DNA of 64,000 nt from an uncultured Thermoplasmata archaeon (GCA_963809035.1 CAWEHV010000002.1:1716701-1780700); one strand, 5' to 3'. Counted from the first letter of the stretch, positions 21,487 through 49,936 are shown. A program made the numbers and translations. Notes: generated from the letters alone by a model not told the origin.

Positions 21487-21992
21487 TCCGCGAGCACTGA
21501 GTCGGTTTGGTACTGGTGCTACAGCCTTGCATTCTCTCGCCCACCTTGGGGAATTAGCGGTCGGAAGTTGGTTGGTATCCCAAGAACCGTAGAGGGAGCG
21601 ATACACCAATCTTACTTGCCTTGTCGGTGAAGAAGCCCGCCTGAGTCGTGGAGTTCGCGCTGGCGGTCCGTTCGATGCCCGATTGAGTCAAATGGAAGTC
21701 CGAGCACTAAAGTCGGACGAAAGATGGCTTCGATATCTAGGAGCCTTGCGCGGGAAGCCTAATCGCGGTGCGAGAAACCTCACTTGTCTCCCGACCGTGC
21801 GATCAGAGTTATTGTCTGCAACGTAGAAGCTCCGTCTGAAAGACGGACGAACCTGTTCGCACGCGTCGCGCCGCACAGGGCCGGGTCGATCGGAACCGCC
21901 GATGGTCTATAGTACCAGAAAGGATTCCTACTCCAGGAAAGTCTCAGGAATCGTCCGTTCGAGGGGCCACGAGGAGTGCAAATCGTGACCAT

Positions 21993-25335: not shown

Positions 25336-25347
25336 GAGGCTTGCGAT

Positions 25348-27057: not shown

Positions 27058-27394
27058 TGGGATGCCCCTTAATCCTGGCCCGGGCCCACCTTTTACCTGG
27101 TAGGAAAGTCCGCCCTCAACCGGCTCCTTTTGCCACGCCATTGCGACCTAGTATCCTTAAGACGAGTCGATGGCCGGCCCTCTTTTCATGTGAAATCAGA
27201 CAAGGTTTCCAGAGGCCAGGACGGGACGCATCGCCACTGAAATGCGCACTGAGATCGAGCGGGAGGAAGTACTCATGAGATTGCATCGAGTCTAGTCTCT
27301 CTCCTCTGCACATGATTGTGCGTAGAGTAGATTGCCCAAAATATGGGGTGTAAACGTGGCGCCCTCGACCCGTCAAGAATCATTCTCGAGCAGG

Positions 27395-28438
27395 CTAGGA
27401 GGGTAGGCTGGCCGGGGGAGGAAGTAGTTCATTTAGCACTATTATCGGATCCTGGCTTAGGAGAACGTCATTGAGTAGAATTTGCGACTTGTTGGCGGCG
27501 ATGAAATTCAGTACCTCCTTCTTCTTGTCGCTAAAGATGTGGAGACACGCCTCGCACATTGACGAATAGTGCCGCGTGTCTCCGACGGCTGATAGAATGC
27601 CCCTGGTCCCTCGCATATGTATCCACCAGAAAAGGAGGTTCGCCCGCGCAGCCTGGACCATACTGGCAAAGCTAGTATTCATGACATTTCCGACGGAAAG
27701 GCCATCGGTATCGAACGCCGCGTGACCGCAGCAAAGGTGGACACTCCCCTCCGGGTGGACCGCGAGAGTCTTTCCAATCTGTTTGCAGCCGATCTTGTCG
27801 TTCGCCCTCTCGGAGGCAGGCAGTCGTCCCGGTTGGTCTGTAAAGAGGCGGCCACGCCCCGTCGCGCTCGGTTTATCTTCTAGAAAAATCACCCGCTGGG
27901 CTAGTTCCTCACTTGACAACCCCAGGTACTCAGCAGTACCGGCAATGACCGATTTCGAACTATGCTTGCTCCAATTATCGACTATCGTCGCCACCGCAAC
28001 ACGCAAGTTCTGAGCCAAACTCGCTTCGACAAAACGATAAACATTCTCTACGGGCATGAATTCAGCATGGTAGTCGTCGTAGCTCGTATTTATCTCGTCC
28101 AGTCCCGCCTCCTTAAGTCGGGAGACCATACTTGATGCGGAATCCTTGCTTCTGGCCCAATAGGCATTTGTAACAACTCGGGTAAGAAGGCCCATTTCGT
28201 GTGATTTCCGGATGCCATACTCCAAGTCCGCCATGTGAAGTGTTGGCTCACCCCCGGTAAAGACGACCACACCGATAGTTCCGAGTTCTTTGGCACTGTC
28301 CAGCGAGCGGTCAAGGACAACCCGCGGCATTCGAAGGGATACTTCGGGCGCACTGCTCACGCTACAATGTGCGCACCGGAAGTTACATTTCAAATCAAGG
28401 AATATTGACAATATCGTAGGGATCATACTCCGGTCCAA
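27395..28438 (-). CDS. Radical SAM enzyme with C-terminal SPASM/twitch-type auxiliary-cluster domain (peptide- or cofactor-modifying maturase family)
   Basis: 'CNFRCAHC' (CxxxCxxC) near the N-terminus, 'GGEPTL' SAM motif, C-terminal Cys cluster 'CKQIGKTLAVHPEGSVHLCCGH...CEAC'. Confidence 0.75.
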   Translation of the reverse strand: MDRSMIPTILSIFLDLKCNFRCAHCSVSSAPEVSLRMPRVVLDRSLDSAKELGTIGVVVFTGGEPTLHMADLEYGIRKSHEMGLLTRVVTNAYWARSKDSASSMVSRLKEAGLDEINTSYDDYHAEFMPVENVYRFVEASLAQNLRVAVATIVDNWSKHSSKSVIAGTAEYLGLSSEELAQRVIFLEDKPSATGRGRLFTDQPGRLPASERANDKIGCKQIGKTLAVHPEGSVHLCCGHAAFDTDGLSVGNVMNTSFASMVQAARANLLFWWIHMRGTRGILSAVGDTRHYSSMCEACLHIFSDKKKEVLNFIAANKSQILLNDVLLSQDPIIVLNELLPPPASLPS

Positions 28439-32764: not shown

Positions 32765-34114
32765 CTATGTGAGGGGATGCCCAGAAGCCACGGAATGCCT
32801 GACGGCCCCTTCCATCTGACCTATCTTGCTGTAGGCCTCTAACGGCCTAAGAACGGTAATCCCGGTTCCAGTGTAAGCCTCCTCGATTGCTGCGCCATAC
32901 TCTCGTCCACCCAGTACCACGACCCGGGCGAACTTGTGGAAACCCTCCCGAAGGAGCTGTCCTCGAATTCGGATAGTGCTGACTGCGCTGCTCCGTCGTC
33001 TAAAAGTCGCATCGTAGTTATCGTGAATCAAGAAACCGGGTCTGACGAGGCCATGTTTTGCAGACAGTATGGCCCATGCGTCGCCGAATTCCTCCGCATA
33101 GGTTCGATTCGCAAAGAAGAAGCGTCCGATGTAAGCATTCTTGGCAGCTGCAGGGCCAGCGTCGGTCCTCTCATCCCAAATCTTCCGCGACCCGCAACTA
33201 ACTATGACTAATGTCCTTCCTTGAGGTCTAGCGCGTTCGATTTCGGATTTCGCGCCGTTGAGATAGAGCGGTCCCGTGAAGATTTGATCACTCAAGAAGT
33301 TACGAACCTGGGCGTACCGCGACCTCCGGGCCAAGTGAACGGAAGCCCGCGTACGCGGCTTGTAATTGAATATCCAGCCCTTGTAATCGCTGCCGAACAA
33401 ACCGAGCTGCTGGAATCGGAGATGACGAGAGGGATGATAGCATCCAAGCGCAAACAGCCAATCGTCGGGGTGAGACGCGCGAATCCGGTCAAGAACATTG
33501 TAGAGTACTCCTTTTCCCCGCACGTGAACATAGTGCGAGGTGTTCCTGCGGCGCTTCAGCAATCCTCCTATTGCAACATGCTGATACCCCATCCTTCGAA
33601 GCCGTTCGTAACAGCGCAAGTATTCAGGGACTGATCTGCCTTGTGCGACGGCCACAAGGGTAAACTTCCGAGGTCGCTTCTCATACGCCCGCAAGCCGAT
33701 GCGCGCGCTTCTCACGGTGAGGTCCGCTGCGCGAAGCCGATCTATGATGATTCCGAAGTCGACACCCATTCTCTCGTACCGGCTGAAGAGCTCGGAATAA
33801 TCAAGGGTGCATCCATCCTTTGTAAAAACCCCCGAATCGCAAATCTTCGTTACCCCTCGACGGCGTAGCTGTCGGCATTGCTCATCATGGCCGTTGCCGC
33901 AATAGGATTCACCGCATGGGAAATCAGCGAGGAGTTGTTGGAAATGGAACGAAGTGTTCGCATGAGACATGATGCCCAGTGGACCTTCGTAATCACCGAA
34001 TCGGATTCCTCGTAAGATGCGCAATGAAGCCGGACGATCAGCTACAAAGAAGGGGGTAAAAGTCGAAAGGGCGGCAGTTCCAGAGGCTGCCCGGATGGCT
34101 GCCCGGGAAATCAA
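32765..34114 (-). CDS. TGT-fold (archaeosine/queuine tRNA-guanine transglycosylase-like, DpdA-like) protein lacking the Zn subdomain, fused to a C-terminal ~130-aa domain of unknown function
   Basis: Motifs in the ArcTGT order: 'ICDSGVFT' (cf. DSGSFQ), 'GVDFGIIID' (cf. GVDIGTFLD), 'VAIGGLL' (cf. IGGVVP), 'LFALGCYHP' (cf. LFGAGHP). No CxCxxC...H zinc motif. Last gene of the operon. Confidence 0.6.
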   Translation of the reverse strand: MISRAAIRAASGTAALSTFTPFFVADRPASLRILRGIRFGDYEGPLGIMSHANTSFHFQQLLADFPCGESYCGNGHDEQCRQLRRRGVTKICDSGVFTKDGCTLDYSELFSRYERMGVDFGIIIDRLRAADLTVRSARIGLRAYEKRPRKFTLVAVAQGRSVPEYLRCYERLRRMGYQHVAIGGLLKRRRNTSHYVHVRGKGVLYNVLDRIRASHPDDWLFALGCYHPSRHLRFQQLGLFGSDYKGWIFNYKPRTRASVHLARRSRYAQVRNFLSDQIFTGPLYLNGAKSEIERARPQGRTLVIVSCGSRKIWDERTDAGPAAAKNAYIGRFFFANRTYAEEFGDAWAILSAKHGLVRPGFLIHDNYDATFRRRSSAVSTIRIRGQLLREGFHKFARVVVLGGREYGAAIEEAYTGTGITVLRPLEAYSKIGQMEGAVRHSVASGHPLT

Positions 34115-35004
34115 CTCGAGCCTCCGCGAAGGGCGTCGAGCTCAAGGGGGTCGACCGGTAGCCCTCGGCGCGCATAGCATTGAACGAGATCAGACAACAT
34201 CTTGGCATGGGGTCCATCCAAGAGAACTCCCGCCTCTCCAGTCGCTCCAAACGAATGGTTTCTGAACTCTCCGCTACCAACATAGGCCCATTTTCGGTCT
34301 TGGACGATAATTTTGTGATGAACCGAAGCCGCGATGGCGCCTCTCGCTCGCAGATTCTCCGCCGGAGGAGGCACAAAACGGAGATAGTCCCTTATCTCAA
34401 AATGAGTGGGGTCGTCCGGGTTGTTCCGCTTGTAAGAGTCCCACAGGTTCTGGAGAGCGTCAATACGCTCTTCGTACTGGCGCGGTCGAGTCGAATCCTC
34501 CCTCACGAGGATTCCTCTTCCCACAAGCGTGAACTCGATATGGCGAGCAAATGACTTTTCAAAATCGTCGCTGAAACGTGAGAGCGCGCGGGAATCGATG
34601 AACGGGGAGATGATTTGGAGCTGTTCCTGAGCGCCACCAACCAGTGCCGAGAATACGGCCTCGAGGTTCGCATGTTCTACCGCGGGATGCAGATTGCACG
34701 CTTTGTGGGCATCAGCCATGATGTCGATTGGATCATTGTGAATCACCGTTACCTTTCCCGCGTGTCTGGCCCAGTCGATGCGAGGCCGAGCAACGCGGTA
34801 GGCCCGACCCGGTGATTGAATGAGCTCCAGGTCGCCCTGTCGAACTAGGCGTTCGAGGGCCAGTTCAATCTCAGGCATCGGAATGTCGTCCAACTCGTCA
34901 ATAATCTCTCTGGGCCCCCCTACGCCTAGCCTTTGAAGGAGGGACGAAATCTGCAGGTCAATTTGGTCACTGCTGGTCATTCTGTTGAATCCAGTCGACC
35001 GCAA
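34111..35004 (-). CDS. Phospholipase D-family (HKD) nuclease, DrmC/DpdK-like
   Basis: Single HKD motif 'HHKIIVQD...GSGEFRN'. 4-nt overlap with the downstream gene and 38-nt overlap with the upstream gene. Confidence 0.7.
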   Translation of the reverse strand: MRSTGFNRMTSSDQIDLQISSLLQRLGVGGPREIIDELDDIPMPEIELALERLVRQGDLELIQSPGRAYRVARPRIDWARHAGKVTVIHNDPIDIMADAHKACNLHPAVEHANLEAVFSALVGGAQEQLQIISPFIDSRALSRFSDDFEKSFARHIEFTLVGRGILVREDSTRPRQYEERIDALQNLWDSYKRNNPDDPTHFEIRDYLRFVPPPAENLRARGAIAASVHHKIIVQDRKWAYVGSGEFRNHSFGATGEAGVLLDGPHAKMLSDLVQCYARRGLPVDPLELDALRGGSS

Positions 35005-36697
35005 TCGTTCTGTCTAAGAGGAGGTTCGGGGGCATCCAGCGGTTGTACTCCCGAGTCAAGAACCCGTGGCAAGACGTGTTGTCCGTCTTGATGCAGGCGA
35101 TGCAAGAGGAGTCGCAAAGCTGCGGACACTCCTGGATTCGTCGAATTCCTCGCACGAGCCAACTGGTCATCTGGCCGGAATGCTGAGAGAGCTGGGTGAT
35201 TCCACCGTCGGCCAGATCCCGTGTTTCGAAAAAGAGAATCGCGGCATCTGCCACGAGCATCCGGGAATCGAAATCCTCGAGGCCGATTTCTGTAACGAGT
35301 GAGGAGCGGAGGGCGTGCTCTATAGCATGAAGCAGCTTGGTCATTACGAACACGTTTTTCTCACCGTCAGCGGTCAGGAGATCCTGCAATCCCAACCTTG
35401 CAACGTTCTCCGACTCCGCCATGAACCGCCTCTCGTAATCCTGACCCTCCCCGTTACCGCCCGATAGAAGCCTCGCTAGCTTCGTCTTGTTGAGGCCGAT
35501 AATCAATCCACGACCTTCGGTGATCGTGGCAAAGGCACGGAATCGCTGGACCCCCGGCTGTACTTGGAAGAAGCGTGGGTAACGCTCGTCGTCAGGGACC
35601 GGCGGCTTGGGTCTGATTTCCGACCGGTACCCATAGACAGCTAGAAGAGATTGAATCTGTGGTACATCGAAAATTTCGGTTGCGCCAAGCCTACGGAGCC
35701 ATTTTGCGGCGCTAGGTTCAACCGTAGACATCGTGAACGAGTGCATCGTGTCTCTGTGCTGAGTCTTCAGACTCGCGAGTTGAACGTCTCGCCCCTGAGC
35801 GTCTCGGACAAATGTGACTGTCAGAGGTACCGCAATTTCTCCACTCGTAGCGGAGCGAGGAGCCATGATCGACGTCGTTTCTCCAGCGAGTAACTCTTCG
35901 TCAGAAATGTTGCAGATTGAGCAGAGTCGATTGACTCGTTGCGTGTTGATGTTCGACGGACAACTGGTCACCTCGCATCGCCAATGAGCATCACTCAGGT
36001 TCGCCCCGATGTCCAAGAACAGTCCATGGCCAGAGGTGCAGTGGATCCAGCCGGTGGCAAGTTTCCTTGAGAATGTGTTGTACGGCAGGAGCGGTTCGAT
36101 GTTTGCGCACCTTGGGCAGGAATAGACAACGTTCAGCTGGTGAAGCTCAGAATCTTCCTTGTGAAAAGTGCAACGGAGGCTTTCGGCGCCGTTTGGGTCG
36201 AGGTTGTAGTACCGATGGCATGAGTCACAAAGGAACAATGTAGGAAATATTGCACCCTGGACTTCGCTATTCTCATCTATCAACCGGAGGTCGACAGACT
36301 CTGGACCCATAACTCGTTCGTGGGCCCCTTCAACCCGTTGCCCGTCCGCCGAAACTTCGGTTCCCTTAGTCGCTCCTAGGCTGGCCAAGAACGCATTTGC
36401 GGCCACCTGGTCGGCCACCAGGCCGGCCGCCACATTCTGAACCGGCAAGATCCGCAACGATCGGTCACGTTCTTCTCGGCGCACGGCGCGTGCTATGCGC
36501 GCACGCGCCTCGCGATCGACCTTGCGTGCGTAGTCGACGCTGATTAGTCGCGCGATAGTCGTTTTAACAGTTTCGTATTCATCGCCAAGCGGCCGCCCGG
36601 TGAGTCGCACAGTTCGTAGTGTCGCATATTCGGTGCTCCAGGGTCTGTCAGGAAAGTACCGGAATAGGGCTTGGTACTTGCTTACCTTCCGCGTCAA
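34967..36697 (-). CDS. Cys-rich protein with C-terminal zinc-ribbon, DUF1998/DrmB-like by position and Cys pattern
   Basis: 576 aa. Multiple CxxC/CxxxC clusters, including C-terminal 'CPQLCDSSCIACIKTDNTSC'. Start overlaps the helicase stop (ATGA). Confidence 0.4.
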   Translation of the reverse strand: MTRKVSKYQALFRYFPDRPWSTEYATLRTVRLTGRPLGDEYETVKTTIARLISVDYARKVDREARARIARAVRREERDRSLRILPVQNVAAGLVADQVAANAFLASLGATKGTEVSADGQRVEGAHERVMGPESVDLRLIDENSEVQGAIFPTLFLCDSCHRYYNLDPNGAESLRCTFHKEDSELHQLNVVYSCPRCANIEPLLPYNTFSRKLATGWIHCTSGHGLFLDIGANLSDAHWRCEVTSCPSNINTQRVNRLCSICNISDEELLAGETTSIMAPRSATSGEIAVPLTVTFVRDAQGRDVQLASLKTQHRDTMHSFTMSTVEPSAAKWLRRLGATEIFDVPQIQSLLAVYGYRSEIRPKPPVPDDERYPRFFQVQPGVQRFRAFATITEGRGLIIGLNKTKLARLLSGGNGEGQDYERRFMAESENVARLGLQDLLTADGEKNVFVMTKLLHAIEHALRSSLVTEIGLEDFDSRMLVADAAILFFETRDLADGGITQLSQHSGQMTSWLVRGIRRIQECPQLCDSSCIACIKTDNTSCHGFLTREYNRWMPPNLLLDRTIAVDWIQQNDQQ

Positions 36698-38310
36698 GGT
36701 GGGCCGGTCTCCTCCACAGTATCATCGGCGGAATCATCTTCGATTACCGTCTCTTCGTGATGAAATTGCTGTAACTGGCCAGCCAAGGCGTCGACGGGCC
36801 GAACAGAAACGTCGCGCTCTTCAGAGTCCCGTAACGAGAGAAGAAGAAGCTGGTCGGCTGAGAGGATACCGCCGATGTAGTTCCCGGGACCTCCCATCGA
36901 GCTCCACGAGACAATGAGATGGGTGAGCTCATCAAATGCGAGATCTAGGTACTCCCGGTAATCCGGTCCTTCAGTACCGCTCAGGACTTCGGCGAGATCT
37001 CTGAGCACCTGCACCTTCAGAGCAGGGTTCGCCTCCAGTTTCTGGACCGCCTTGGGAGCGGTCATCATGTACCGGTCGTCGTAGGTACTGTGAGCGAATA
37101 AGACCACGCGAAGCACATTCGCGAATATCTGGCGAGCGGCGTATCGATTCGCGCGTCGCATGGGGCGCGGTTCGAAGTAGCCACGCAAATCGCTTAGTAT
37201 GTAGTGAAAGTTCGCGTAGAACTCAATATCACGAGGAAGATCAGGCCGGACGATTACGTGTGCATGTCCTGGCGCTCTTTCGCGTCGCCCAGTTCGCCCA
37301 ATTGTTTGAACGAATTCCGTGATTGATTCGGGGAGGCTCACCATCACGAGTTGGTTTAGGTCCTCGATATCGAGACCCAGGCTAATCACAACATTTGCCA
37401 CGAAACTCTGAAGTGAACCTTTCGATGCACGGGTGAAGTAGTCCACGAGTCTGTCATTGGGAGTATCGCCCGAGATGAACGGTATCGTGTCTCCGCCCCC
37501 GGAAGCACGTCCGGTAGCATCTCTATATTCCCTTACTAGGAGCCGACCCACATCCTTCCGCTGGACGTAGGTGAGGTTGATTCCGTACGGACGGCCTTCT
37601 CCAGTGTAACCCAACTTCGTTTCGAGCTGACGCTGGAACTTGTGATTCTTGAGAATTGCGTCTCTAACGTGCACCATCGTGCGGGTTGCCAAACGAGGAC
37701 TGCTAGTCCCGATCGGCATTGTGACTAGGCTCCTGTACCGCGTTCTACTGGGATCGACCTCGAAGCTCTTCGAGAATTCGACGTCTGCTGGACTCACAAT
37801 TAACTGATGATTCGGGTCGTCTAACCGCGTGAGCTCTGCCAGAAGCTCTGCTTCGTTTGCGATAGTAGCGGTCCCGACCTGGAATCCAAAAAGCTTGGCG
37901 ATTCGACCGCCGGGGGGATCATTAGGTGTCGTGGCACGTCGTTGATAGAGTTGAAGCAAGGCGATGAATGTACTAAGGTAGATTCCTGTCAGTCCATGTA
38001 GGCTGTGGACTTCATCGAAGGTCCAAAACTGAATCGGCCGTCTGGTCTCGGGGCCGAGGTTTTCAGAGTTACACTTGATGCAATGGGTAGCGTAGTTCCA
38101 CCAAACGGGGCTCATGGCCCCACATTCTCCGCAGGGGCGGACCGGGAAACCGAACAAGCGCATCCCAGGAGGTTCGGCACCCGACCGAGCCGTGGCTTCG
38201 AAGAAGAGTTTGTCGGGGGTGGCGATTAGAATCGCGGGTAAGAAATCCGCGGATTCCCCACTGCCATACATATAGTCAATTTTGTGCTCGCACTCAGACC
38301 TGATCTCCAC
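36694..38310 (-). pseudogene. SF2 (DExH) helicase, C-terminal portion (motifs II-VI) of a gene split by IS insertion; DrmA-like
   Basis: 'FWTFDEVHSL' (motif II DEVH) and 'QTIGRTGRRERAPGHAHVI' (motif VI). The N-terminal half, with Walker A, is encoded at 39982-41652 on the same strand on the other side of the IS. Confidence 0.65.
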
Positions 38311-38319
38311 GCCCGTTAG

Positions 38320-40020
38320 TTGCTAGCTTCCTTCCCGGACCCCTCCTTCTCCTCGAGGATCCGCACTGTTCGACCGGCAGGTTCATTAGGAACATACGCA
38401 CTACATAGTACGTATGGCGTTCCCTCGGGTCATCACCACGCGCGGCCGACACTATCTCCAGCAGGTCGAGTCGGTCTGGGACCCGAAGAAGAAGCGCTCC
38501 GTCACCCGGGTCCTCGCCCATCTCGGCCCCTGCGATGAGGGCGGCAAGCTCCTGCGCCCGCCTCGGGCCCGGGTGGAGAGCGTTCACTCCTCGTTTCCGG
38601 TCGGTCCTCTCGCCGTGCTGTATGCCGCGGCCCGTGAGCTCCGGGTGCGCGAGCATCTCCAGAGGGTTCTTCCGGGGGCTCCTACCGAGCTGATCCTGTG
38701 TCTCGCCCTGAACCAGGCCACGGCCCGCGTCCCGATCTGCCGCCTTCCCGAGTGGGTACGGGCGAGCCCGCTGCCTCGGTGGGAGAGCTTCCCGGCCGAG
38801 GAGCTAAGTCCTCGACACTTCGAGGAGGCACTCTCCTCGCTCTGTCACCTCACCCCGGAGAAGACGTGGGAGGACCGGGGCCTCCTGCTTCAGCAGGAAC
38901 TCACCGGGGCGTGGCGGGGCCGCTCTCGAGAGCCGGCCGGCGCCTACTACGACATCACGAAACAGGCGTACTACGGGAAGCATTGTCCCTACGGCCAGTT
39001 GGGCCACGACGAGCGGGGCACGGCCCCGGTCGTGGGGTTCGGGATGGCCGTGTCCCGGGAGCATCACCACCCGATCCTCTGTCGAGTCCTTCCCGGTGGA
39101 CAGAACGATTCGCTGAGCGTGGCTCCCACGCTGGAGCTGCTCCAGTCCCAGGGTCTGCGGCATCTGACGCTCGTGATGGACAAGGGGATGACGTCGAAGG
39201 CGAACGTGCTCCGAGCGCGCGAGGCGGGCTACCACGTCATCGGGTCGGTCAAGGGGTGGAGCGCCGAGTCGGTGGAGCATGCCTCTCGATGGCCCGGGGA
39301 GGAACTGGAGCGCTCGGAGTTCGTGGTCGGGACTTCCCATGGAGGGGCGGTGTATGCGCGGGCGTTCACGGCGCCGCTGCTGGGGCTACCGAAGGTGAGG
39401 ATCGCGGTGGTGGAGAATCTCTCCCGCAAGGCGGAGGATCGCCAAGCGCGGGACCTTCTGCTTCAGGAGTTGGAGGGACCGGTGGCGAAAGCTCGGTTGG
39501 AGGAGATCCGCTCGGAACTGGGCGAGGTCATCGTCACCGCCCGAGGAAGGAGAGGGTTCCGAGTCGACCCGAAGGCCGTGGAGCGGGAACGGGCGCTGGA
39601 CGGCCGCTTCCTGCTGTTCAGTACGGTCCTCTCGCTCGACGGGCGAGCGATGTACCGGGAGGTACTTCGCGAAGGATGCGGTGGAGAAGGCGTTCCGCAC
39701 GAGCAAGGGGGAACTGTCGCTGGGCCCGGTGAGGTATCGTCGGAAGGATCGGTTGGACGCCTACGCCACGGTGGTCTACGTGGCGTATTTGCTCTGGAGT
39801 TGGGCGGAGCGGAGGTTGCAGGAGAAATACCCCGAGCGGAGCCTGTCGGAGGCGATGCGCTCCCTCGAGAATCTGGCGTGGGTACGGTTTGGGACCGGGA
39901 AATCCGTCCGGGAGTGGGCCACTCGCCTCACCACCGAGCAGGAGAAGGTTCTCGCCGCCGTCAGCGCCGTACAGTATGTAGCTACATACTAACAGGCCGC
40001 GAGCTCAGGTCAGAGTTCTG
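38320..40020 (+). mobile_element. IS1634/IS4-superfamily (ISH-like) insertion sequence interrupting the helicase gene
   Basis: About 1.7-kb block. Carries a DDE transposase in two frames and separates the two halves of one helicase reading frame. Terminal repeats are only weakly recognisable (…tatgtag…). Confidence 0.6.
38414..39992 (+). CDS. IS1634/IS4-family DDE transposase, two frames (38414-39690 and 39681-39992; frameshift near 39670)
   Basis: 'VMDKGMTSKANVLRAREAGYHVIGSVKG' and C-terminal 'AFRTSKGELSLGPVRYRRKDRLDAYATVVYVAYLL' (cf. the 'E.FR..K..L..RP..H....R..AH' end of IS4/IS1634). Either a sequencing error, a programmed shift or a pseudogene. Confidence 0.65.
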
Positions 40021-41652
40021 ACAGACTCCGATAATCCTTTTCCCGAAGTTCTGTGCGAATACTGACTTGCTTCTGTGGCAGTTCGGGCAGACTTCGAACT
40101 GCACCATACGCTGTCCAACATTGGGTCGCGCAACGGCAGCGTAGAGGGGGTCCCGAGTTCCGATGAGGATTCCTCCCGTGATGTTGGACTTAGGGAATAC
40201 CTGCCTCGAGTTATGCAAGAGAATCGTCAGCCGGCGGTACATGTCCTCGTTAAGAATTCTAGTGGGAAACGCGAGCACCGCTCGATTTCCGGTCCATAGA
40301 TAATACAAAAGGGAATTTGCCATGAAAACGAGGGTCTTACCCGTCCCTGTGGGGGCCTTTACCAGGTGGCACGATCCAGCGACCTTGGCGTTCAACAAAA
40401 GTTGGACTTGCCTTTGAATGGCCAACCATTGAAACCAGTGCAAATGCGTGATTTCCGGGAATGAACGATGAATCGACTCGATGACCCCAGCAAGAGTCGC
40501 AATCCGGCCACTTGCCTTCAGTTTCATCAATTCCTCCTCTGAAAGGCAATCGAGGTGGGATGCCAGGCCCTCTTCATCTCCGAGTTCGCTTATTGGGGGT
40601 CCAGGCACGGGGCGGATCAGCACGCTGTCGTGGACGGCAGTCATGGCGGCAATGAGGAGCTTTGATGAACCGGGCGGAATCGTGACCACGCAATTCACAC
40701 CGCGGGGGGCGTTTTGCTGAATCTCAGTGAGGAACGCCCGTCGAGCCTCCCCCGCCTCCTCGGCGACGAGCCTCTGAGAATCGTCTTGCGTCGGGAAGGT
40801 AATATCTCGGTCGAATGCTATTCGAACTTCGGGGAAAACAATCGTCTTCTCTCCCCAGTACGTTGCGGCAGCTGCTTCCTTTTCGCTCACATGCGTGACG
40901 TTCGTAACATCAATCTCTAGGGTCGGGGGGTTTCCGTTCGATTCAGAACTCAGCCGGGCGGTCACTCGAACGGTCCTCGGAGGCGAGCGATGCAACAGAA
41001 CAGCCGCTCCGGTCGGGCGTGCTGCGTTCGACTCCACCTCTGCGTTCTGACGGCTCTCTTCTCTCAGGACTTCGCGGAACTCGGGAATCTCAATGGTGAA
41101 ATCGTTCGAGGTCCCTAAGTCAAGCTTTCCCTCCCAAGTGTAGTGACCTAGGGAGAGGCCGATTGGCCGGACGGCAGATCCAATTTCGCTGCGGAGATTT
41201 GCCCGTTTCAGACCGGGTCCCTCTGTGGACTCGACGTCAAAGAAATCACGAGGTATCGAAGGACGCTTAACCGATCTCCGCTCACGCAACCCGTGTTGAG
41301 TTTGCTCGGCATAGGAAACCCACCGTGGTACGGAGAAATCGATTCGGACTTGTACCGCACCGGGATTCGAGAATAGCGGAACGATCACGCGTATGTAGGG
41401 TGCGTACCGCCATGCTTGATTTCGCTTTCGAATCGAAACATCGTGCGGCACCAGGTAGTTCGCGAGGAACGAGTCCCGCACCTCGCGCAGTGGGCTGAAC
41501 GTGACCTGGTGTATCTGGGGAGCAGATATTTGATCGAGCGCGAGACTGTCAGGTCTGTTCGGATGAGAATCGGCAAGGAATCGACGAATCCGGTCATCCA
41601 GTGTCCCTGAGAGTGAGCTAGCTGCGACCATATGTGAGCCCTCCGTGACCAA
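39982..41652 (-). pseudogene. SF2 helicase, N-terminal portion (large N-terminal domain, Walker A 'APTGTGKT', zinc finger 'CPNCH') of the IS-split DrmA-like gene
   Basis: Motif I near the C-terminal end of this ORF. Reading frame runs into IS sequence and stops at 39982. Confidence 0.6.
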
Positions 41653-43855
41653 GAAGCGTCACTTCGACTGCTCGAACCTTGAACCCGCCGGGACTAGCCA
41701 ACCAGACACCCCCGACTCTTGCCCTGGGATACGCGAAGGCGCACAAATGCTCGACTGCTTTCGATACCGAGTAGGCCGGGCCGACCGCGGCACCGGCACC
41801 TCGAAGCGAAACGCTTCCGAAGCGCCGGAAGACACCGCAAGCTCGCTTCACCAGTCCGCGAAAATCCGCGTCGCGCGGAACGTTTATGATTCTTGGAGCT
41901 GTCCCCCCTCCCGCCTCCTTCCAGAGTTCCTCTTGTGCGGTCCAATCTTTACGCTGTTGGGAAGCTTCCAGATTCGCCAGCTCGATCACAAGAGGCACCC
42001 TCGAACCAGTCCCCCCAACCGCGAGTCGTGTTAATTCGGTGTGTTTTAGCCAGAACATGGGATGGGCTCGATCCATCGAGAGAGCGTGAGTGGAAAGTCG
42101 AGCAAAATCTGGTGTCGTACGAAATCGTTCCTCGTCATCGACTGAACCCCGGCGGGAGAGTTTCTCCCACTTAACGACGGATTGTGGAGTAACCTGACTA
42201 GGTACGTAAACCCAAGTGTCCTCACAGTCAATGACGTGGGCAGAGTTCCTAAGGGATCTGAGGGACTCCTTGAGTGGGCGCACCCCGGACCACGCGCGGT
42301 CCAATAGCTCGACGCCAGCGTCGGAGATTGAACGGTATGACTTGACGATACCTAAGGCGGAAATCTCCTCCGCGCGCTGCCGCGATATCACTTCGATTTT
42401 GTGGAAAGGTTCCACTTGGAACTCAAATCGGTCGGTCTGGGTTCGCTGACGTCCGCGCAAGGTGTCGGACAGAATCACTTCGATCCATTGGCCCGGCTGG
42501 AGACTTCGGATAAAGCCCCGACGACGCTCAAAGTCCTCGAAATCGAAGATCAATTGTGATGGCAGTCCGAACACATCTCTGGCGAAGATAGAGGGTTGTG
42601 AGCAATATCTATCGAGAGGGGCTTTCACCTCGAATGGTGAGACGAATGTTCGGCTAAATGGGTGGTGCCCTTCTGACCACGTGTTGCGATCGATATTGAA
42701 TGCGGCGAATTGCCCTGCGTCGGAAACCAGAGCCTCCAGTGAGGGCAAGGAAGCCAGATGGGTCATAATGAATGTTCGGATTGCCGGGTCGAGTTGTTGA
42801 GTAGACAGGGAGCCCGCGTCGCCCGTGTTCCGCACGCGACCGAGGTAAGGGTAGGCTCTCCAACGTGCCAGGATTAGCCGGCGAAGGAATGTCCGCGCGG
42901 GATCGGCCCTGCCTTCCCGGTGCCTCTCAGGACTGATTGTCGTGCTAAGGTGCAAGATGGTGTCGAATTCGGGAACGTAGATGCGGAAGTAGTTTCCAGA
43001 GTAAGCTCCGCCGAATCTAGTCTTTTCCACGCTGAGTATGATTGACTCGAGTTGTGGGGTCAATCCTTGAAGCTCTGCATCCTTCCAGTCCACCATTCGA
43101 TGGGAGAAATCTCTGACAAAATCGATTCCGAGTGCGGCTGTAGGGTTCGTGGCAGCTTCCTCACGAAGCTTTGCCCAGATTGAGTTTAGCTCGGCAGAGT
43201 CGAAAGGTTTCTCAGCTTCGAGGGCCAAGTCTGTTCGGAGGTAGTTGATTCGATCCTCGTTCTTCAGGTATCGGCTATACAATTCGCTAAGCAGATTCGA
43301 AACTAGCTCGACGGGAGCCAATGGAATCTCCGCAGCATCCTTCCGCTGCTTCCACGATTCGATTGAGGAGAGTTCTGGTCGAAGCCCGTAGTCTTCCAGC
43401 TCCGCCTCCACCTTTGGCCAATCGGCGCTTCTAAACTGCCAGAACGCGAATTCGCCATCCTCAGTGCGAAGCAGCTCATGTCGCGGTGAGAGAGCGGCCA
43501 AGTGGGCGTACAATTGCGTCGGAAGCCAGGTCTCAGATACATCCAGGTACACGTGCTCCGGGTCTCTAAGAAGCCCGAGTCGGATGGATGGGAGGCGTCG
43601 AGCCCGGAGGATGTAATCCACTTTCGACGCTTGGATTGGATGAACCGATCCTTCCTGAACGATACCGAAATCCGGCGGTCTGCCTTCAACTCGAAAGCTC
43701 CTCAGAATCCATCCGTTTAACAACAAAGGCCGTCGACCAGCTCCGGTAGGTAGCCAATGGATGGGGAGCCATGTCCGGTCAAGAATCCGAAGGAATTGAA
43801 CATGGCTCCCTTCTGGGAGGTTCCCCTGGAAGAATCCCCAACCCGCCATCGGCAT
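41618..43855 (-). CDS. 745-aa protein of unknown function, first gene of the operon (DrmE-like by position)
   Basis: Long ORF with a 35-nt overlap onto the helicase start. No recognisable catalytic motifs. Confidence 0.45.
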   Translation of the reverse strand: MPMAGWGFFQGNLPEGSHVQFLRILDRTWLPIHWLPTGAGRRPLLLNGWILRSFRVEGRPPDFGIVQEGSVHPIQASKVDYILRARRLPSIRLGLLRDPEHVYLDVSETWLPTQLYAHLAALSPRHELLRTEDGEFAFWQFRSADWPKVEAELEDYGLRPELSSIESWKQRKDAAEIPLAPVELVSNLLSELYSRYLKNEDRINYLRTDLALEAEKPFDSAELNSIWAKLREEAATNPTAALGIDFVRDFSHRMVDWKDAELQGLTPQLESIILSVEKTRFGGAYSGNYFRIYVPEFDTILHLSTTISPERHREGRADPARTFLRRLILARWRAYPYLGRVRNTGDAGSLSTQQLDPAIRTFIMTHLASLPSLEALVSDAGQFAAFNIDRNTWSEGHHPFSRTFVSPFEVKAPLDRYCSQPSIFARDVFGLPSQLIFDFEDFERRRGFIRSLQPGQWIEVILSDTLRGRQRTQTDRFEFQVEPFHKIEVISRQRAEEISALGIVKSYRSISDAGVELLDRAWSGVRPLKESLRSLRNSAHVIDCEDTWVYVPSQVTPQSVVKWEKLSRRGSVDDEERFRTTPDFARLSTHALSMDRAHPMFWLKHTELTRLAVGGTGSRVPLVIELANLEASQQRKDWTAQEELWKEAGGGTAPRIINVPRDADFRGLVKRACGVFRRFGSVSLRGAGAAVGPAYSVSKAVEHLCAFAYPRARVGGVWLASPGGFKVRAVEVTLLGHGGLTYGRS

Positions 43856-43904: not shown

Positions 43905-45335
43905 CTATATCACGAAGTCGCGGACGTCGATGACTCTGAACTTCGGTCCTGCGTCCCCAAGGCTGGCTTCGATCACAAGCCGAGCCAGGTGTTCCCTGCA
44001 GTCTCCCTGCATGCGAAGCACATCCATGCGAGTCGCCGAAGCGTCGGGAGGAATGCAATGGAATGAGAGATGGGTCGACTCTTGAATCTCACCGGTGACG
44101 GCAACACCTGCTGCCGCCGCTGCCGTCTTCACTGCTCGTCGGAGAAAATCGGTCAGGACTCCATCTTCCAGGCCTTTTGGTACACGAATGTCGAAGCCCT
44201 GTTCGGGCCCGTCCCCGGCAAACGACAGGATAATCGGAATCGGGTCGGCGGTTCGGCTTTCCGAAAGAACCCTGGCAAGTTCCGTTGCCTGGCGGTGAGA
44301 AGCTAACGCTGCCGTTGCAGACTTGGCAGCCTCTCCCATTGATTCGTGCGCCGCCCTCTTCTTTTCGTAAGAGGAAATCATCTCTTCTCTGGCGGCCCGA
44401 TCTATGCCGGCACTGATCACCGACTTTATCGACTCTGGAACACGCAGTGCTCCGCGCTCCATCGCATCTAGGAAAACCAGTTCGTCTCTCGCGGCAAGAT
44501 AGGCCGCCGCCGCAGATTTGTGAAACTCGGATTCCTCCCAAGCACCGACGTTTCCGATGGCCTCGAGCTCGGCAATCGAAGAGACGTGAAGTCCTTGCGG
44601 CCTCAAAATCTCATTTGCCCACTCGACCAGGTCCGTCCGCGCGACCCGGAGTTGTTCCTCGAGTGGGCGACTCCCGCCAATCCGGCCAGAAGGTCGCGAC
44701 CCCGATTCGATTCTTCGAAGCGATGATGCAGCCCGGCTGACGACTTGCATCGCTGCTTTTGCAGGATCGTCCGCATATGTCTGCAGGTCGTGCAGAACTG
44801 TGTCGTGCGCTTCCTGGGCGCCCTTCCGCAGCCGCTCGGCCTCATCCTTTTCCCGTCCGAGTCGCTCGACCTCCCTCGTCAGAATCTCGGCCCTTGACTG
44901 TAGTCGCGCTTTTTCCTGTTCCACCTGGAGGCTCTGTGCTTGATAGGCCAGCTCAAGCTCGCGCGCGCGTTTTTCCAGTTGATTCTCAATCCACGCTTGA
45001 TCACGCGGTGGCTCCCGTTCGGCTACAGCAGCAACTGACCGAGGTGGGACGGCAGTCAGGTGCCATTGAAGGTACTGCCCCCTTGCCGATGCGATACGAC
45101 CCCTGGCCTTCTCAAGGTATTCTTCCCATTGAGGCCGTGAAAGGCCGGTGAGAAGGAGCCTCCCTTTCGCAATATCCTCGATATCGACTCGAGCATGTTC
45201 CGATTTCGCTTTGGGTAGCGTCCCAAGATACGAATTCAATAGCCCTTTGAATCCCTGAACAGCGGTCGAAAGGTCGCCCCCTTTTACCTCGATTTCTGCC
45301 AGGAAAGAGGAAGCTTGCGCCGTCATGCACCCCAC
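43905..45335 (-). CDS. 476-aa coiled-coil-rich hypothetical protein
   Basis: Central region 'ENQLEKRARELELAYQAQSLQVEQEKARLQSRAEILTREVERLGREKDEAERLRK' is a strong heptad pattern. Confidence 0.45.
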   Translation of the reverse strand: MGCMTAQASSFLAEIEVKGGDLSTAVQGFKGLLNSYLGTLPKAKSEHARVDIEDIAKGRLLLTGLSRPQWEEYLEKARGRIASARGQYLQWHLTAVPPRSVAAVAEREPPRDQAWIENQLEKRARELELAYQAQSLQVEQEKARLQSRAEILTREVERLGREKDEAERLRKGAQEAHDTVLHDLQTYADDPAKAAMQVVSRAASSLRRIESGSRPSGRIGGSRPLEEQLRVARTDLVEWANEILRPQGLHVSSIAELEAIGNVGAWEESEFHKSAAAAYLAARDELVFLDAMERGALRVPESIKSVISAGIDRAAREEMISSYEKKRAAHESMGEAAKSATAALASHRQATELARVLSESRTADPIPIILSFAGDGPEQGFDIRVPKGLEDGVLTDFLRRAVKTAAAAAGVAVTGEIQESTHLSFHCIPPDASATRMDVLRMQGDCREHLARLVIEASLGDAGPKFRVIDVRDFVI

Positions 45336-45839: not shown

Positions 45840-47645
45840 TCAGGTTCCTCGAAGCCATGTCAAAGCCGCTCCAATCTCGTTGGGCTCGCACTCGCGAACT
45901 GCGGGTATTCGCGACAGCTGTGATTTGGGGTGGTCGTGGTCTCCATCAGTCACGATAAGGAGTCTGTCGGCGGCTATTCCCTCCCGCGCAAGGTCGTCGA
46001 GAGCCTTTCCGAGTTCGGTTCCCCCTGACGTTTGTAAGTGCTTCGACATCGGTGAACCCCGGAGATCGCCACCCGGGACGAGACCAGCGTTGAAACGGTA
46101 GATATGAACGAATGAATCCGAGACCGCACTTCCCAAAGCGACCTGGACCTCAGGTTTCTCGTACGCGTCACCCATGCTACTCGAAACATCAAGCAGCAGG
46201 ACCAAGCAGAGACCTTGCAGTGGTGCCTTCGCTTTGGAGACTGCATCCAGAAGGTTGCTTCTCACTAGGTCCAAAGCCGGACGGTTTCCCGGATGAACTC
46301 CCTCAATCAGCACGGATTGAGGAGGGAGATTGGGTCGGACCCCTGAGTCGTCGTAATTGAGTACTAAGACTCCTCCCGAGTCCGGAGTGCCACCGACATA
46401 CTTCGTGCAGACTTCCTCCACGTGCTCCTTCGTCAGCCGTGCTCGTTGCTTGAACTCGACTACTGCGACCGTGCTTGCCGGCACGCTGGGGTCCTCTGAA
46501 CAGATTCTCAGATCCGGCTGAATGTCGTAAGGAGTCCCTGGGGCCGGCTTGGTTCTGATTCGTACCGCAACGCAGGCGTTCGGATACTGACGCGAACGCA
46601 AAGAGGCGACGATGCCCGGAAGGTAGCCATCGATCGCAACTCGGTGGCCATTGACGATGGGGATCGGACCAAGAAATGCGAGCTCATTCAGCACCACGAT
46701 TGTCGACCAGACCTCGTAGGTCTGCCACCTATGTTTCCAAAAAGGTAGCTCCAGAACGTCGAGTGTCTTGTTGATCCACTCAACCTTGTCGTTGCGGGCA
46801 GTGTGAATTTTCGAGGCAATCTCGTTGTCAAAGAATGTGACTGCCTCGGTCCTCGGGCTAACAGCCACCTCAGAGGCGAAGAGAAAAACGAGGGCCCAAC
46901 CCGGAACCAGGTCTGTCAGCATTTGGGCAGCATCCTCAAGCGACGCGAAATGTGTATCCGGTGGCGCCGTCGTAACCTTCAATTCTGGAACAGTTCGGAG
47001 CTCGTTCCTCACTTCGAGCTCATTTGCGTACTCGTCGATTATCCACTGGAATGCGCGCTTGGTCCATGACAAGACTCTCCCGAAGTCATCGGCACCGCTA
47101 GATGGAACCGGTAACCGAAGACGTTGTCCACGACGGTATCCGAGGCTGGGTCCGGGAGTGTTTTCTGGGAGTCCTTCCCTGATAATCCGTTCGAGGTCGA
47201 AGAACTTGTGAAGGATCTGGGGAGTCAACAGTTTGACGTCCACAGGAGAGAAGGCAGCTTTGACCTGGTTGAGCTGTTTGCGAAATGACTCGAGATTAAC
47301 AGGAGTCGTTTTCCCGGTCGGGTCAAGCTGAATCGTAAGTGTCTCGGTAGTCCTTGTCGCGGAAATAGCTGCGAGGTAGCTCCATATTTCTTCAAACATC
47401 TGACTGAAAGGCTGGACAACAAGGAGAATCCTCTCGAGCAAGTCCTCAGCAGTCATCTTCGATGAACGAAGAAACTCGTCCAACCCGTTTTCCGGGCAGC
47501 CGACAGCACGACAGAGGTCTCTCTCCAGAGCAACATCCCGACCCCGATCCGGCTTGAGATCCAGCCCTCGATTTCGCAGGGCCCCGTAGAGCTCAGCCGC
47601 CGTCTTCAAGACGGGGGGAGAATCCCCAGAAACTCTTCGACTCAT
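45840..47645 (-). CDS. 601-aa protein with C-terminal von Willebrand factor A (vWA) domain
   Basis: MIDAS-type 'LLLDVSSSM', 'GGTELGKAL', 'LIVTDGDHD'. N-terminal ~450 aa unassigned. Confidence 0.65.
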   Translation of the reverse strand: MSRRVSGDSPPVLKTAAELYGALRNRGLDLKPDRGRDVALERDLCRAVGCPENGLDEFLRSSKMTAEDLLERILLVVQPFSQMFEEIWSYLAAISATRTTETLTIQLDPTGKTTPVNLESFRKQLNQVKAAFSPVDVKLLTPQILHKFFDLERIIREGLPENTPGPSLGYRRGQRLRLPVPSSGADDFGRVLSWTKRAFQWIIDEYANELEVRNELRTVPELKVTTAPPDTHFASLEDAAQMLTDLVPGWALVFLFASEVAVSPRTEAVTFFDNEIASKIHTARNDKVEWINKTLDVLELPFWKHRWQTYEVWSTIVVLNELAFLGPIPIVNGHRVAIDGYLPGIVASLRSRQYPNACVAVRIRTKPAPGTPYDIQPDLRICSEDPSVPASTVAVVEFKQRARLTKEHVEEVCTKYVGGTPDSGGVLVLNYDDSGVRPNLPPQSVLIEGVHPGNRPALDLVRSNLLDAVSKAKAPLQGLCLVLLLDVSSSMGDAYEKPEVQVALGSAVSDSFVHIYRFNAGLVPGGDLRGSPMSKHLQTSGGTELGKALDDLAREGIAADRLLIVTDGDHDHPKSQLSRIPAVRECEPNEIGAALTWLRGT

Positions 47646-49741: not shown

Positions 49742-49920
49742 AGGGGTTTCCCCAGGTCCTGGTGCACGCGACGACAGTCGAGCAGGGGGAGAGGGACCTG
49801 ACGAACGCGCTGATCGAGCACCTGAGGCGGCTGCAGGATCACGAGACAACTCGGATCGACTGGGATGAGTTCCCGACGGTGCGAGTCGTTCGGTTGAGAC
49901 TAACCCCTCTCGCGGGATAG
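49666..49920 (+). CDS. HicB-like / UPF0150-fold small protein (84 aa)
   Basis: 'FEIRLRILD...SFIGIVEGFPQVLVHATTVEQGERDLTNALIEHL' follows the HicB N-domain pattern (beta-hairpin, 'PG/PQ' turn, 'T.GET/QGE..EAL'). Confidence 0.4.
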   Translation: MFEIRLRILDLRERESDLPSFIGIVEGFPQVLVHATTVEQGERDLTNALIEHLRRLQDHETTRIDWDEFPTVRVVRLRLTPLAG

Positions 49921-49936
49921 GCGTTCCCGCAAGGTG

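What the first reader, a model, noticed from the sequence alone, without database searches (positions are those of the whole stretch)
36694..41652. The system's helicase gene is split by an IS1634/ISH-like insertion
Walker A 'APTGTGKT' and a CPNCH zinc finger sit at the end of ORF 39982-41652. Motifs II-VI are in ORF 36694-38310 on the same strand. A 1.7-kb block between them encodes an IS4/IS1634-type DDE transposase, itself in two frames, on the opposite strand. The defense operon in this strain is therefore probably inactive. That fits either toxicity or recent IS expansion, and it makes the locus easy to overlook by automated annotation.
Basis: seen in the sequence. Interest (0 to 1): 0.6.

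Follow-up and report, generated by a model that had tools for sequence, protein, structure and literature searches.

The report
Defence helicase gene split by IS
A 1.7-kb jumping gene of the IS1634 family has inserted into the helicase gene of a rare DISARM-like defence operon in a Thermoplasmata archaeon; removing it in silico restores the gene exactly, so this is a real but ordinary knock-out.

Summary
The minus-strand ORFs 39982-41652 and 36694-38310 are the two halves of one DrmA-like (DISARM-type) SF2 helicase gene. Between them lies a 1711-bp IS1634-family element at 38299-40009. It has 30-bp imperfect terminal inverted repeats and a 5-bp target-site duplication, TCAGA. Five near-identical copies in another Thermoplasmata genome share the same ends and carry TCAGA or TCTGA duplications. 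Removing the IS plus one duplicate (38299-40014) gives a 1080-aa ORF. That ORF aligns without a gap across the junction to uninterrupted orthologues of 1072-1117 aa and rebuilds an invariant four-cysteine zinc ribbon. Two other assemblies of the same locus carry the same insertion.

One correction: the "two-frame" transposase comes from a single extra G at 39661. That G is absent from both other assemblies, where the transposase is an intact 525 aa.

Loss of function of the helicase, and polar effects on the four translationally coupled neighbours, are inferred and were not shown. The toxicity idea is untested.

The event is commonplace, so interest is low. The operon is more unusual. A DpdA-like transglycosylase fused to a DpdC-like domain sits where related cassettes carry DNA methylases.

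The parts
41618..43855 (-). First gene of the cassette, 745 aa, no recognisable domain. It occupies the position that DrmE has in class 2 DISARM, as I recall that gene order.
   Evidence: ORF. No Pfam, PADLOC or NCBIfam hit. Homologues sit directly upstream of drmA in L001, L003, L004, L040, L041 and L042. The family is rare: 27 representatives among 1.8 billion proteins.
40015..41652 (-). 5' part of drmA: native codons for residues 1-546 plus part of the next codon, carrying Walker A, motif Ia and the first three cysteines of the zinc ribbon. As an ORF it runs on to a stop at 39982 and picks up 9 IS-encoded residues (DLSSRPVSM).
40010..40014 (.). Right copy of the 5-bp target-site duplication, TCAGA.
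38299..40009 (+). IS1634-family insertion sequence, 1711 bp (1710 bp without the extra G). The terminal inverted repeats are 38299-38328 and 39980-40009 and match at 22 of 30 positions. Both ends begin CCTGAKCT.
   Evidence: The ends are identical in five other copies whose flanks differ.
38414..39992 (+). Transposase gene, intact length 525 aa. In the window it is broken by one extra G at 39661, just upstream of the Y(2)K(3)E(6)K motif.
38294..38298 (.). Left copy of the 5-bp target-site duplication, TCAGA.
36694..38293 (-). 3' part of drmA: the fourth cysteine of the split zinc ribbon, motif Ib, a second zinc ribbon, the DEVH box, motifs III-VI and the C-terminal region. The listed ORF starts at a GTG at 38310, inside the IS end.
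34967..36697 (-). DrmB-like gene (DUF1998-type zinc-binding partner of DrmA), 576 aa. It overlaps the end of drmA by 4 nt.
   Evidence: PADLOC DrmB PDLC02581, E 7.9e-25, over the full length. NCBI names a cluster-mate 'DUF1998 domain-containing protein'.
34111..35004 (-). DrmC-like phospholipase-D-family nuclease gene, 297 aa.
   Evidence: PADLOC DrmC PDLC02600, E 1.7e-13. Pfam PLDc_2 and NCBIfam DISARM_DrmC_I hits are below their cut-offs.
32765..34114 (-). Last gene of the cassette, 449 aa: an N-terminal DpdA-like transglycosylase (TGT) fold fused to a C-terminal DUF6884 / DpdC-like domain.
   Evidence: Pfam DUF6884 at 57 bits, above the cut-off of 30. PADLOC DpdA E 3e-8. AlphaFold model with pLDDT 89. 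The best PDB fold match is 7UI4, the DNA preQ0 insertase DpdA, E 8.8e-10.

Best explanation
An IS1634-family insertion sequence transposed into a TCAGA site inside drmA, the helicase gene of a five-gene DISARM-like operon in a Thermoplasmata archaeon, and duplicated those 5 bp. The element is 1.71 kb, encodes one 525-aa DDE transposase, and lies antisense to drmA. It cuts the gene between Walker A / motif Ia and the DEVH box. The cut falls inside a CxxC...CxxxxC zinc ribbon embedded in the first RecA-like domain. The upstream fragment now ends after nine IS-encoded residues. The downstream fragment has no native start codon. This part is shown by the sequence and by comparison with other copies and orthologues. 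The rest is inferred. The helicase is non-functional. Because the five genes overlap or abut as a translationally coupled operon, expression of drmB, drmC and the transglycosylase-fusion gene downstream is probably reduced as well, so the system is off in this lineage. The insertion is evolutionarily recent, since there is no other lesion in the operon and the IS is about 99.9% identical to copies elsewhere. It is nevertheless shared by at least two slightly different genomes.
For: Both halves hit one DrmA profile at abutting positions. Excising 38299-40014 gives a 1080-aa ORF. That ORF aligns gap-free across the junction with nine relatives, including P0001 (70% identity, 1073 aa), and C522, C525, C544 and C549 are invariant. 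The restored protein gives one continuous DrmA match, residues 357-985 against profile positions 307-936, at 203 bits; the two halves score 56 and 134 bits. Eighteen further metagenomic relatives gave tblastn matches on one strand with nothing like a 1.7-kb insertion (query residues matched listed as one span per locus; continuity of a single ORF was not checked). The IS ends are defined by five other copies, 99.6-99.9% identical, with unrelated flanks. Each is bracketed by TCAGA or TCTGA. The transposase matches NCBIfam IS1634 above its cut-off. Size, 5-bp duplication, C-----YT ends and a YREK motif lacking the arginine all match the published family description (PMC2266710). The same insertion at the same site is present in the Logan contig from SRR28061721, which is identical over 10.7 kb except for one base. 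It is also present in ENA ERZ25039509 contig_61878, which differs by 4 substitutions and 3 indels over 21.7 kb. The other four genes have the same lengths as their orthologues. Gene overlaps are 41618-41652, 36694-36697, 34967-35004 and 34111-34114.
Against: There is no expression or phenotype data. Loss of function and polarity are inferred from gene anatomy only. An outward-reading promoter in the IS end could still drive the downstream genes; archaeal promoters could not be assessed with the available tools. No empty-site allele from a close relative was found, so the pre-insertion state is reconstructed from orthologues at 70% identity or less. Read-level data were not available, so a mixed population with and without the IS cannot be excluded. 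It is also unknown whether the three assemblies derive from independent samples.
Confidence: 0.9

Rival explanations
1. The insertion is an assembly artefact. A repeated IS was wrongly placed inside an intact drmA when contigs were joined.
For: The IS is multi-copy in related genomes. The window's assembly has at least one probable base error inside the IS.
Against: A perfect 5-bp duplication flanks the element, as at five other copies. Two other assemblies contain the identical junctions. NCBI annotation of a cluster-mate also starts inside the C-terminal half.
Confidence: 0.02
2. The insertion is real, but the system still works in whole or in part. Either the two helicase fragments reassemble, or an outward promoter in the IS end expresses the C-terminal fragment and the downstream genes. 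In the second case the modification gene may stay on while restriction is off.
For: Both fragments are still long open frames. A GTG inside the IS end opens the C-terminal ORF. The downstream genes are intact. The insertion has persisted in two slightly diverged genomes.
Against: The break lies inside the RecA1 domain and removes the fourth cysteine of an invariant zinc ribbon from the Walker A fragment. None of the 27 relatives shows a gene split at this point. Intact open frames are expected anyway after a recent insertion.
Confidence: 0.08
3. The insertion was selected because the system is costly or autoimmune, rather than being a neutral hit during an IS burst.
For: The restriction-side helicase is the hit gene, and the lesion is shared by two genome variants.
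Against: There is only one event. The restored gene contains 12 TCWGA target sites in 3.2 kb, against about 2 per kb across the window, so it is an easy random target. The IS shows signs of recent activity at many unrelated sites. There is no sign of repeated independent hits.
Confidence: 0.15

Closest known systems
IS1634 family insertion sequences (split off from IS4 by De Palmenaer et al. 2008, PMC2266710)
   Same: A single DDE transposase of about 525 aa matches the NCBIfam IS1634 model above its cut-off. Length is 1.7 kb. The target duplication is 5 bp. The ends fit C-----YT. The YREK motif lacks the arginine and reads Y(2)K(3)E(6)K. The host is a euryarchaeon.
   Different: The duplicated target is a defined near-palindrome, TCWGA, in six of six recent copies, whereas the family description gives AT-rich tracts. 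Whether this element already has an ISfinder name could not be checked.
DISARM, especially class 2 (drmE-drmA-drmB-drmC-drmMII; Ofir et al. 2018, gene order from my own knowledge; DrmAB structure in PMC9142583)
   Same: The helicase and its DUF1998 partner are encoded by separate adjacent genes and followed by a PLD nuclease. Bell et al. 2025 (bioRxiv 10.1101/2025.09.15.676423) describe this arrangement as the hallmark of the DISARM branch. The five-gene order has an uncharacterised large protein first and a DNA-modifying enzyme last.
   Different: No methyltransferase is in or next to the cassette in this window. The last gene is a transglycosylase-DpdC fusion. The first gene hits no DrmD or DrmE model. 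NCBIfam DISARM equivalog cut-offs are missed by a wide margin.
Dpd 7-deazaguanine restriction-modification system (dpdA-C plus dpdD-K; PMC10164549)
   Same: The last gene combines a DpdA-like fold (best PDB match 7UI4) with a DUF6884 / DpdC-type domain. In Dpd these two activities insert preQ0 into DNA and convert it to dADG.
   Different: The two are fused into one protein. No DpdB ATPase is present. The restriction side is DrmABC, not DpdD-K.
BRIGADE (Dpd/ARMADA hybrid systems of haloarchaea; Bell et al. 2025)
   Same: Archaeal, built around a YprA-family helicase, associated with a PLD nuclease, and linked to 7-deazaguanine chemistry.
   Different: As described, BRIGADE has two YprA-like helicases with fused DUF1998, a deazaguanine biosynthesis cluster and DpdG / DpdHI. 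None of these is seen here.

Membership tests
IS1634 family | DDE transposase matching the family profile | tested here: met
   The intact homologue P0011 (98% identical) hits NCBIfam NF033559 transpos_IS1634 at E 1.1e-51 and 176 bits, above the cut-off of 100, over profile positions 3-479 of 483. Database relatives are named IS1634 family transposase.
IS1634 family | Element length of 1500-2000 bp with terminal inverted repeats beginning C-----YT | tested here: met
   The element is 1711 bp. The left end reads CCTGATCT and the right end CCTGAGCT. The inverted repeats match at 22 of 30 positions. The criterion is from PMC2266710.
IS1634 family | Target-site duplication of 5-6 bp | tested here: met
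   TCAGA flanks the window copy. TCAGA or TCTGA flanks five other copies.
IS1634 family | Variant YREK motif, with the arginine usually absent | tested here: met
   The sequence YFAKDAVEKAFRTSK gives Y(2)K(3)E(6)K.
IS1634 family | AT-rich target | tested here: not met
   The target is TCWGA in all six recent copies. This is a descriptive tendency of the family, not a strict criterion.
DISARM | DrmA helicase | tested here: inconclusive
   The restored protein hits PADLOC DrmA PDLC02573 at E 1.9e-60. NCBIfam DISARM_DrmA models score 21-28 bits against cut-offs of 950-999. The solved DrmA structure 7S9V matches only over RecA2, E 2.5e-9.
DISARM | DrmB (DUF1998) encoded as a separate gene next to DrmA | tested here: met
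   PADLOC DrmB, E 7.9e-25, over the full length. There is no Pfam hit. NCBI names a cluster-mate as a DUF1998 protein.
DISARM | DrmC PLD-family nuclease | tested here: inconclusive
   PADLOC DrmC, E 1.7e-13. Pfam PLDc_2 scores 21.8 bits against a cut-off of 27, and NCBIfam DrmC scores 23.6 against 133.
DISARM | Dedicated DNA methyltransferase (DrmMI or DrmMII) | tested here: not met
   No methylase domain was found in any ORF of 180 aa or more that was scanned in the window (the ORFs before 8.8 kb, at 12484-13098, 21928-23272 and others were not scanned). More distant cassettes L045 and L047 do carry two methylases directly after DrmC. L001 has an N6_Mtase gene after the cassette.
DISARM | DrmD (SNF2) or DrmE accessory protein | tested here: not met
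   The 745-aa protein and two orthologues have no PADLOC hit at E up to 1.
DISARM | Protection against phage | not testable with these tools
   This needs an experiment.
Dpd system | DpdA DNA transglycosylase | tested here: inconclusive
   At fold level the best PDB match is 7UI4 DpdA, E 8.8e-10. PADLOC DpdA gives E 3e-8. NCBIfam DpdA scores 31 bits against a cut-off of 200. The invariant motifs DSGxF and GxDYKG resemble the TGT catalytic motifs, from my own knowledge.
Dpd system | DpdC (DUF6884 / DUF328) | tested here: met
   Pfam DUF6884 at 57.3 bits, above the cut-off of 30. DpdC is equated with DUF6884 and PF03883 in bioRxiv 10.1101/2025.02.24.639861 and 10.1101/2025.10.09.681413.
Dpd system | DpdB ATPase and the DpdD-K restriction genes | tested here: not met
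   There are no such hits in the cassette. The helicase gives only weak DpdF matches, all scoring below DrmA.

The most novel reading that the evidence does not exclude
The interrupted operon may belong to an undescribed DISARM class. In it, self DNA would be marked by a 7-deazaguanine base inserted by a fused DpdA-DpdC enzyme, rather than by methylation. The DrmABC helicase-nuclease module would restrict DNA that lacks this mark. The IS knock-out would then be a natural 'restriction-off' allele of such a system. The evidence does not exclude this. The fusion occupies the slot that DNA methylases fill in sister cassettes. One orthologous cassette is followed by a gene of the Vut_1 family, which I recall as the YhhQ preQ0/preQ1-transporter family. 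No paper retrieved in the searches describes this combination.
Probability: 0.35. Interest if true: 0.65.

Novelty: new member of a known kind. Interest (0 to 1): 0.25.

Why it matters
For the finding itself the value is mainly practical. It shows that this locus encodes one DrmA-type helicase, not two unrelated ORFs. It gives the exact repair: delete 38299-40014. It also supplies a natural loss-of-function allele. The finding documents a recently active archaeal IS1634-family element with a defined TCWGA target. It warns that the frameshift in the transposase is probably not real. The wider interest lies in the operon that was hit, a rare archaeal DISARM-like cassette in which a deazaguanine-type DNA-modifying fusion replaces the methylase. 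Anyone wishing to test that system should synthesise the repaired gene or use an uninterrupted orthologue such as P0001.

Tried and rejected
1. The repeat finder reported 37-nt inverted repeats (38292-38328 and 39980-40016), and excising exactly that span also restores a frame. I rejected these as the true ends. Other copies show that similarity stops at 38299 and 40009, and the extra 7 nt are the near-palindromic TCWGA duplication plus 2 chance bases.
2. Ends at GTTAG...CTAAC (38316-39993) were rejected. Simple excision there does not restore the frame (manual reading of the sequence; not run as a computation), and other copies extend further out.
3. No second copy of the IS or of the transposase exists in the window.
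4. A blastn search of the IS against the plasmid collection found nothing.
5. I considered programmed frameshifting in the transposase. It was rejected because intact 525-aa genes dominate the databases and are present at this very locus in two other assemblies.
6. I looked for an empty-site allele in close relatives. The metagenome scan with the helicase alignment found only relatives of 26-36% identity. Exact look-up of the N-terminal fragment found no record.
7. Testing whether the 745-aa protein is DrmE gave no PADLOC hit even at E up to 1.
8. Literature searches for DrmA plus transglycosylase, and for IS disruption of DISARM, returned nothing relevant.
Full report
**What is there.** The minus strand between 32.7 and 43.9 kb carries a run of overlapping or abutting ORFs:
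- a 745-aa ORF at 41618-43855;
- a 556-aa ORF at 39982-41652;
- a 538-aa ORF at 36694-38310;
- a 576-aa ORF at 34967-36697;
- a 297-aa ORF at 34111-35004;
- a 449-aa ORF at 32765-34114.

The 556-aa ORF contains KAPTGTGKT and CPNCH near its C-terminus. The 538-aa ORF contains FDEVH, GTATIAN and QTIGRTGRR. Pfam sees DEAD in the first and Helicase_C in the second. PADLOC places both on the same DrmA profile, PDLC02573, at abutting positions 307-503 and 501-962. The next two genes hit DrmB (E 7.9e-25) and DrmC (E 1.7e-13). The last gene hits DpdA, DpdC and Pfam DUF6884. Between the two helicase ORFs, on the + strand, is a GC-rich block (0.63-0.66 against about 0.55 around it). It encodes a DDE transposase read in two frames.

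**Exact anatomy of the insertion.** I scanned all excisions around the two junctions. One stood out: a 1716-bp excision bounded by a 5-bp direct repeat, TCAGA, at 38294-38298 and 40010-40014. This makes the element 38299-40009, or 1711 bp, with 30-bp imperfect inverted repeats starting CCTGAKCT. The 37-nt inverted repeat reported by the repeat finder is these repeats plus the near-palindromic duplication.

The boundaries were tested independently. A scan of reference genomes with the transposase found 27 loci, all in Thermoplasmata MAGs. Five copies in MAG MFD09222.bin.2.161 are 99.6-99.9% identical to the window's element. Their similarity to the window stops exactly at 38299 and 40009, and their flanks are unrelated. 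Each is bracketed by a 5-bp duplication, TCAGA once and TCTGA four times. The element therefore duplicates 5 bp at a TCWGA target.

**Family of the element.** An intact 525-aa homologue, P0011, is 98% identical. It matches NCBIfam transpos_IS1634 at 176 bits, above the cut-off of 100. The published description of the family (PMC2266710) fits in these respects:
- length of 1500-2000 bp;
- ends of the form C-----YT;
- 5-6 bp duplications;
- a YREK motif usually lacking the arginine, here Y(2)K(3)E(6)K;
- a preference for Euryarchaeota.

The one departure is the target, which the paper describes as AT-rich.

**Does excision restore the gene?** Deleting the IS and one duplicate (38299-40014) yields a single 1080-aa ORF. 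Its junction reads ..CPNCHRSKSVFAQNFGKRIIGVCQNS|ECEHKIDYMYG... A search of 5.8 billion proteins found only ten relatives. Six of them are full-length and uninterrupted (1072-1117 aa), including P0001 at 70% identity over 98% of the query. In the alignment there is no gap at the junction. The four cysteines C522, C525, C544 and C549 are invariant, so the IS sits inside a conserved zinc ribbon.

The restored protein gives one continuous DrmA profile match, residues 357-985 against profile positions 307-936, at 203 bits. This mirrors the uninterrupted orthologues. Eighteen more distant metagenomic relatives (26-36% identity) gave same-strand tblastn matches with no sign of an insertion.

**Is the insertion real?** Two other assemblies contain the same locus with the IS at the same site. 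One is a Logan contig from SRR28061721, identical over 10.7 kb apart from one base. The other is ENA ERZ25039509 contig_61878 (380 kb), which differs by 4 substitutions and 3 indels over 21.7 kb. The window's own source contig is 2.31 Mb. Cluster-mates are annotated by NCBI as Thermoplasmata archaeon proteins, named only 'helicase-related protein' and 'DUF1998 domain-containing protein'. Misassembly is very unlikely.

**The transposase frameshift.** The only difference between the window and the Logan contig is one extra G at 39661 (GGGAGG against GGGAG). ERZ25039509 also lacks it, and in both the transposase is an intact 525 aa. The same extra G occurs in two of the five copies in the other MAG, and those two copies carry further small indels. 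It is therefore either a recurrent consensus error at this site or a circulating variant. It should not be taken as evidence that the element is dead.

**Consequences (inferred).** The break separates Walker A and motif Ia from motif Ib, the DEVH box and motifs III-VI, all within the first RecA-like domain. It leaves the fourth zinc ligand on the other fragment. The upstream fragment ends after nine IS-encoded residues. The downstream ORF begins at a GTG inside the IS end. None of 27 relatives shows a gene split here.

The five genes overlap by 4-38 nt, which suggests one transcription unit. A 1.7-kb antisense insertion is therefore expected to reduce expression of drmB, drmC and the last gene. 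All other genes match their orthologues in length. The IS is essentially identical to copies elsewhere, so the event is recent.

The restored gene has 12 TCWGA sites, against about 2 per kb in the window overall, so it is an easy random target. Nothing here supports selection against a toxic system. Recent IS activity is supported.

**The system that was hit.** Orthologous loci share the same five-gene order: an unknown protein of 745-778 aa, DrmA, DrmB, DrmC, and a fusion of 436-491 aa. An AlphaFold model of the fusion has pLDDT 89. Its best PDB match is 7UI4, the DNA preQ0 insertase DpdA, followed by the tRNA-guanine transglycosylases. Its C-terminal domain is DUF6884, the DpdC type.

In more distant cassettes (L045, L047) the slot after DrmC holds two DNA methylases instead. 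One orthologous cassette is followed by a Vut_1-family gene, which I recall as the YhhQ preQ0/preQ1-transporter family. The fusion family is larger, with more than 280 hits, often annotated as YaaA. In Methanoperedens-like archaea it follows a different pair of genes, an unknown 614-aa protein plus a DUF87/HerA-type ATPase.

By the criteria of Bell et al. 2025, separate helicase and DUF1998 genes followed by a PLD nuclease place the cassette on the DISARM branch. It lacks a methylase, however, and fails the NCBIfam DISARM cut-offs. I therefore describe it as DISARM-like with a Dpd-type modification module, not as a member of DISARM or Dpd.

**Verdict.** The finding is correct and now precisely delimited. 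An IS interrupting an accessory defence gene is a routine event, so interest is low. The unusual part is the operon, recorded here as a separate lead.

Noticed in passing
window 32765-43855 (- strand); loci L001, L003, L004, L040-L042, L045, L047: The five-gene cassette is: unknown 745-aa protein, DrmA, DrmB, DrmC, and a DpdA-like transglycosylase fused to a DpdC/DUF6884 domain. The fusion sits where more distant sister cassettes carry two DNA methylases. This suggests a DISARM-like system that marks DNA with a 7-deazaguanine base. No paper I could retrieve describes it.
   Followed up: partly
L036-L039 (Methanoperedens-like and other archaeal contigs): The same transglycosylase-DpdC fusion, usually annotated 'peroxide stress protein YaaA', follows a different conserved pair: an unknown protein of about 614 aa and a DUF87/HerA-type ATPase of about 600 aa. 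The fusion looks like a portable module shared between different putative defence systems.
   Followed up: partly
window 39661: A single extra G breaks the transposase frame. It is absent from two other assemblies of this locus but present in two of five IS copies in another long-contig MAG. This points either to a recurrent consensus error at GGGAG(G) or to a circulating variant.
   Followed up: yes
IS copies in window, L007-L009, L029, L030: All six recent copies of this IS1634-family element are flanked by TCAGA or TCTGA. That is a defined near-palindromic TCWGA target, unlike the AT-rich targets described for the family.
   Followed up: yes
window 49879-49954 (+) and 49937-54253 (-): A tRNA-Glu(CTC) gene abuts the end of a 1438-aa UvrD/GajB-like helicase gene. 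GC content falls to 0.52-0.57 across roughly 13-30 kb and 33-48 kb, against 0.60-0.63 outside. The defence cassette may lie in a genomic island.
   Followed up: no
window 23863-28438: A beta-lactamase-fold protein, an ABC transporter with fused permease and ATPase, and a radical SAM/SPASM enzyme lie together. This looks like a peptide-maturation or export cluster. It is conserved next to the cassette in L034.
   Followed up: no
window about 40290-40299; L002 and L035: The short-read Logan assembly of SRR28061721 breaks inside the N-terminal half of drmA, about 280 bp from the IS and not at an IS boundary. The reason is unknown.
   Followed up: no
window 43905-45335 and 45840-47645 (- strand): Two further ORFs upstream of the cassette, 476 aa and 601 aa, have no family hit in my searches. 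A precomputed Pfam Y4bO_3rd hit is recorded for the second in L034 and L035. They are conserved in the near-identical strain L034 but were not detected next to the orthologous cassettes.
   Followed up: no
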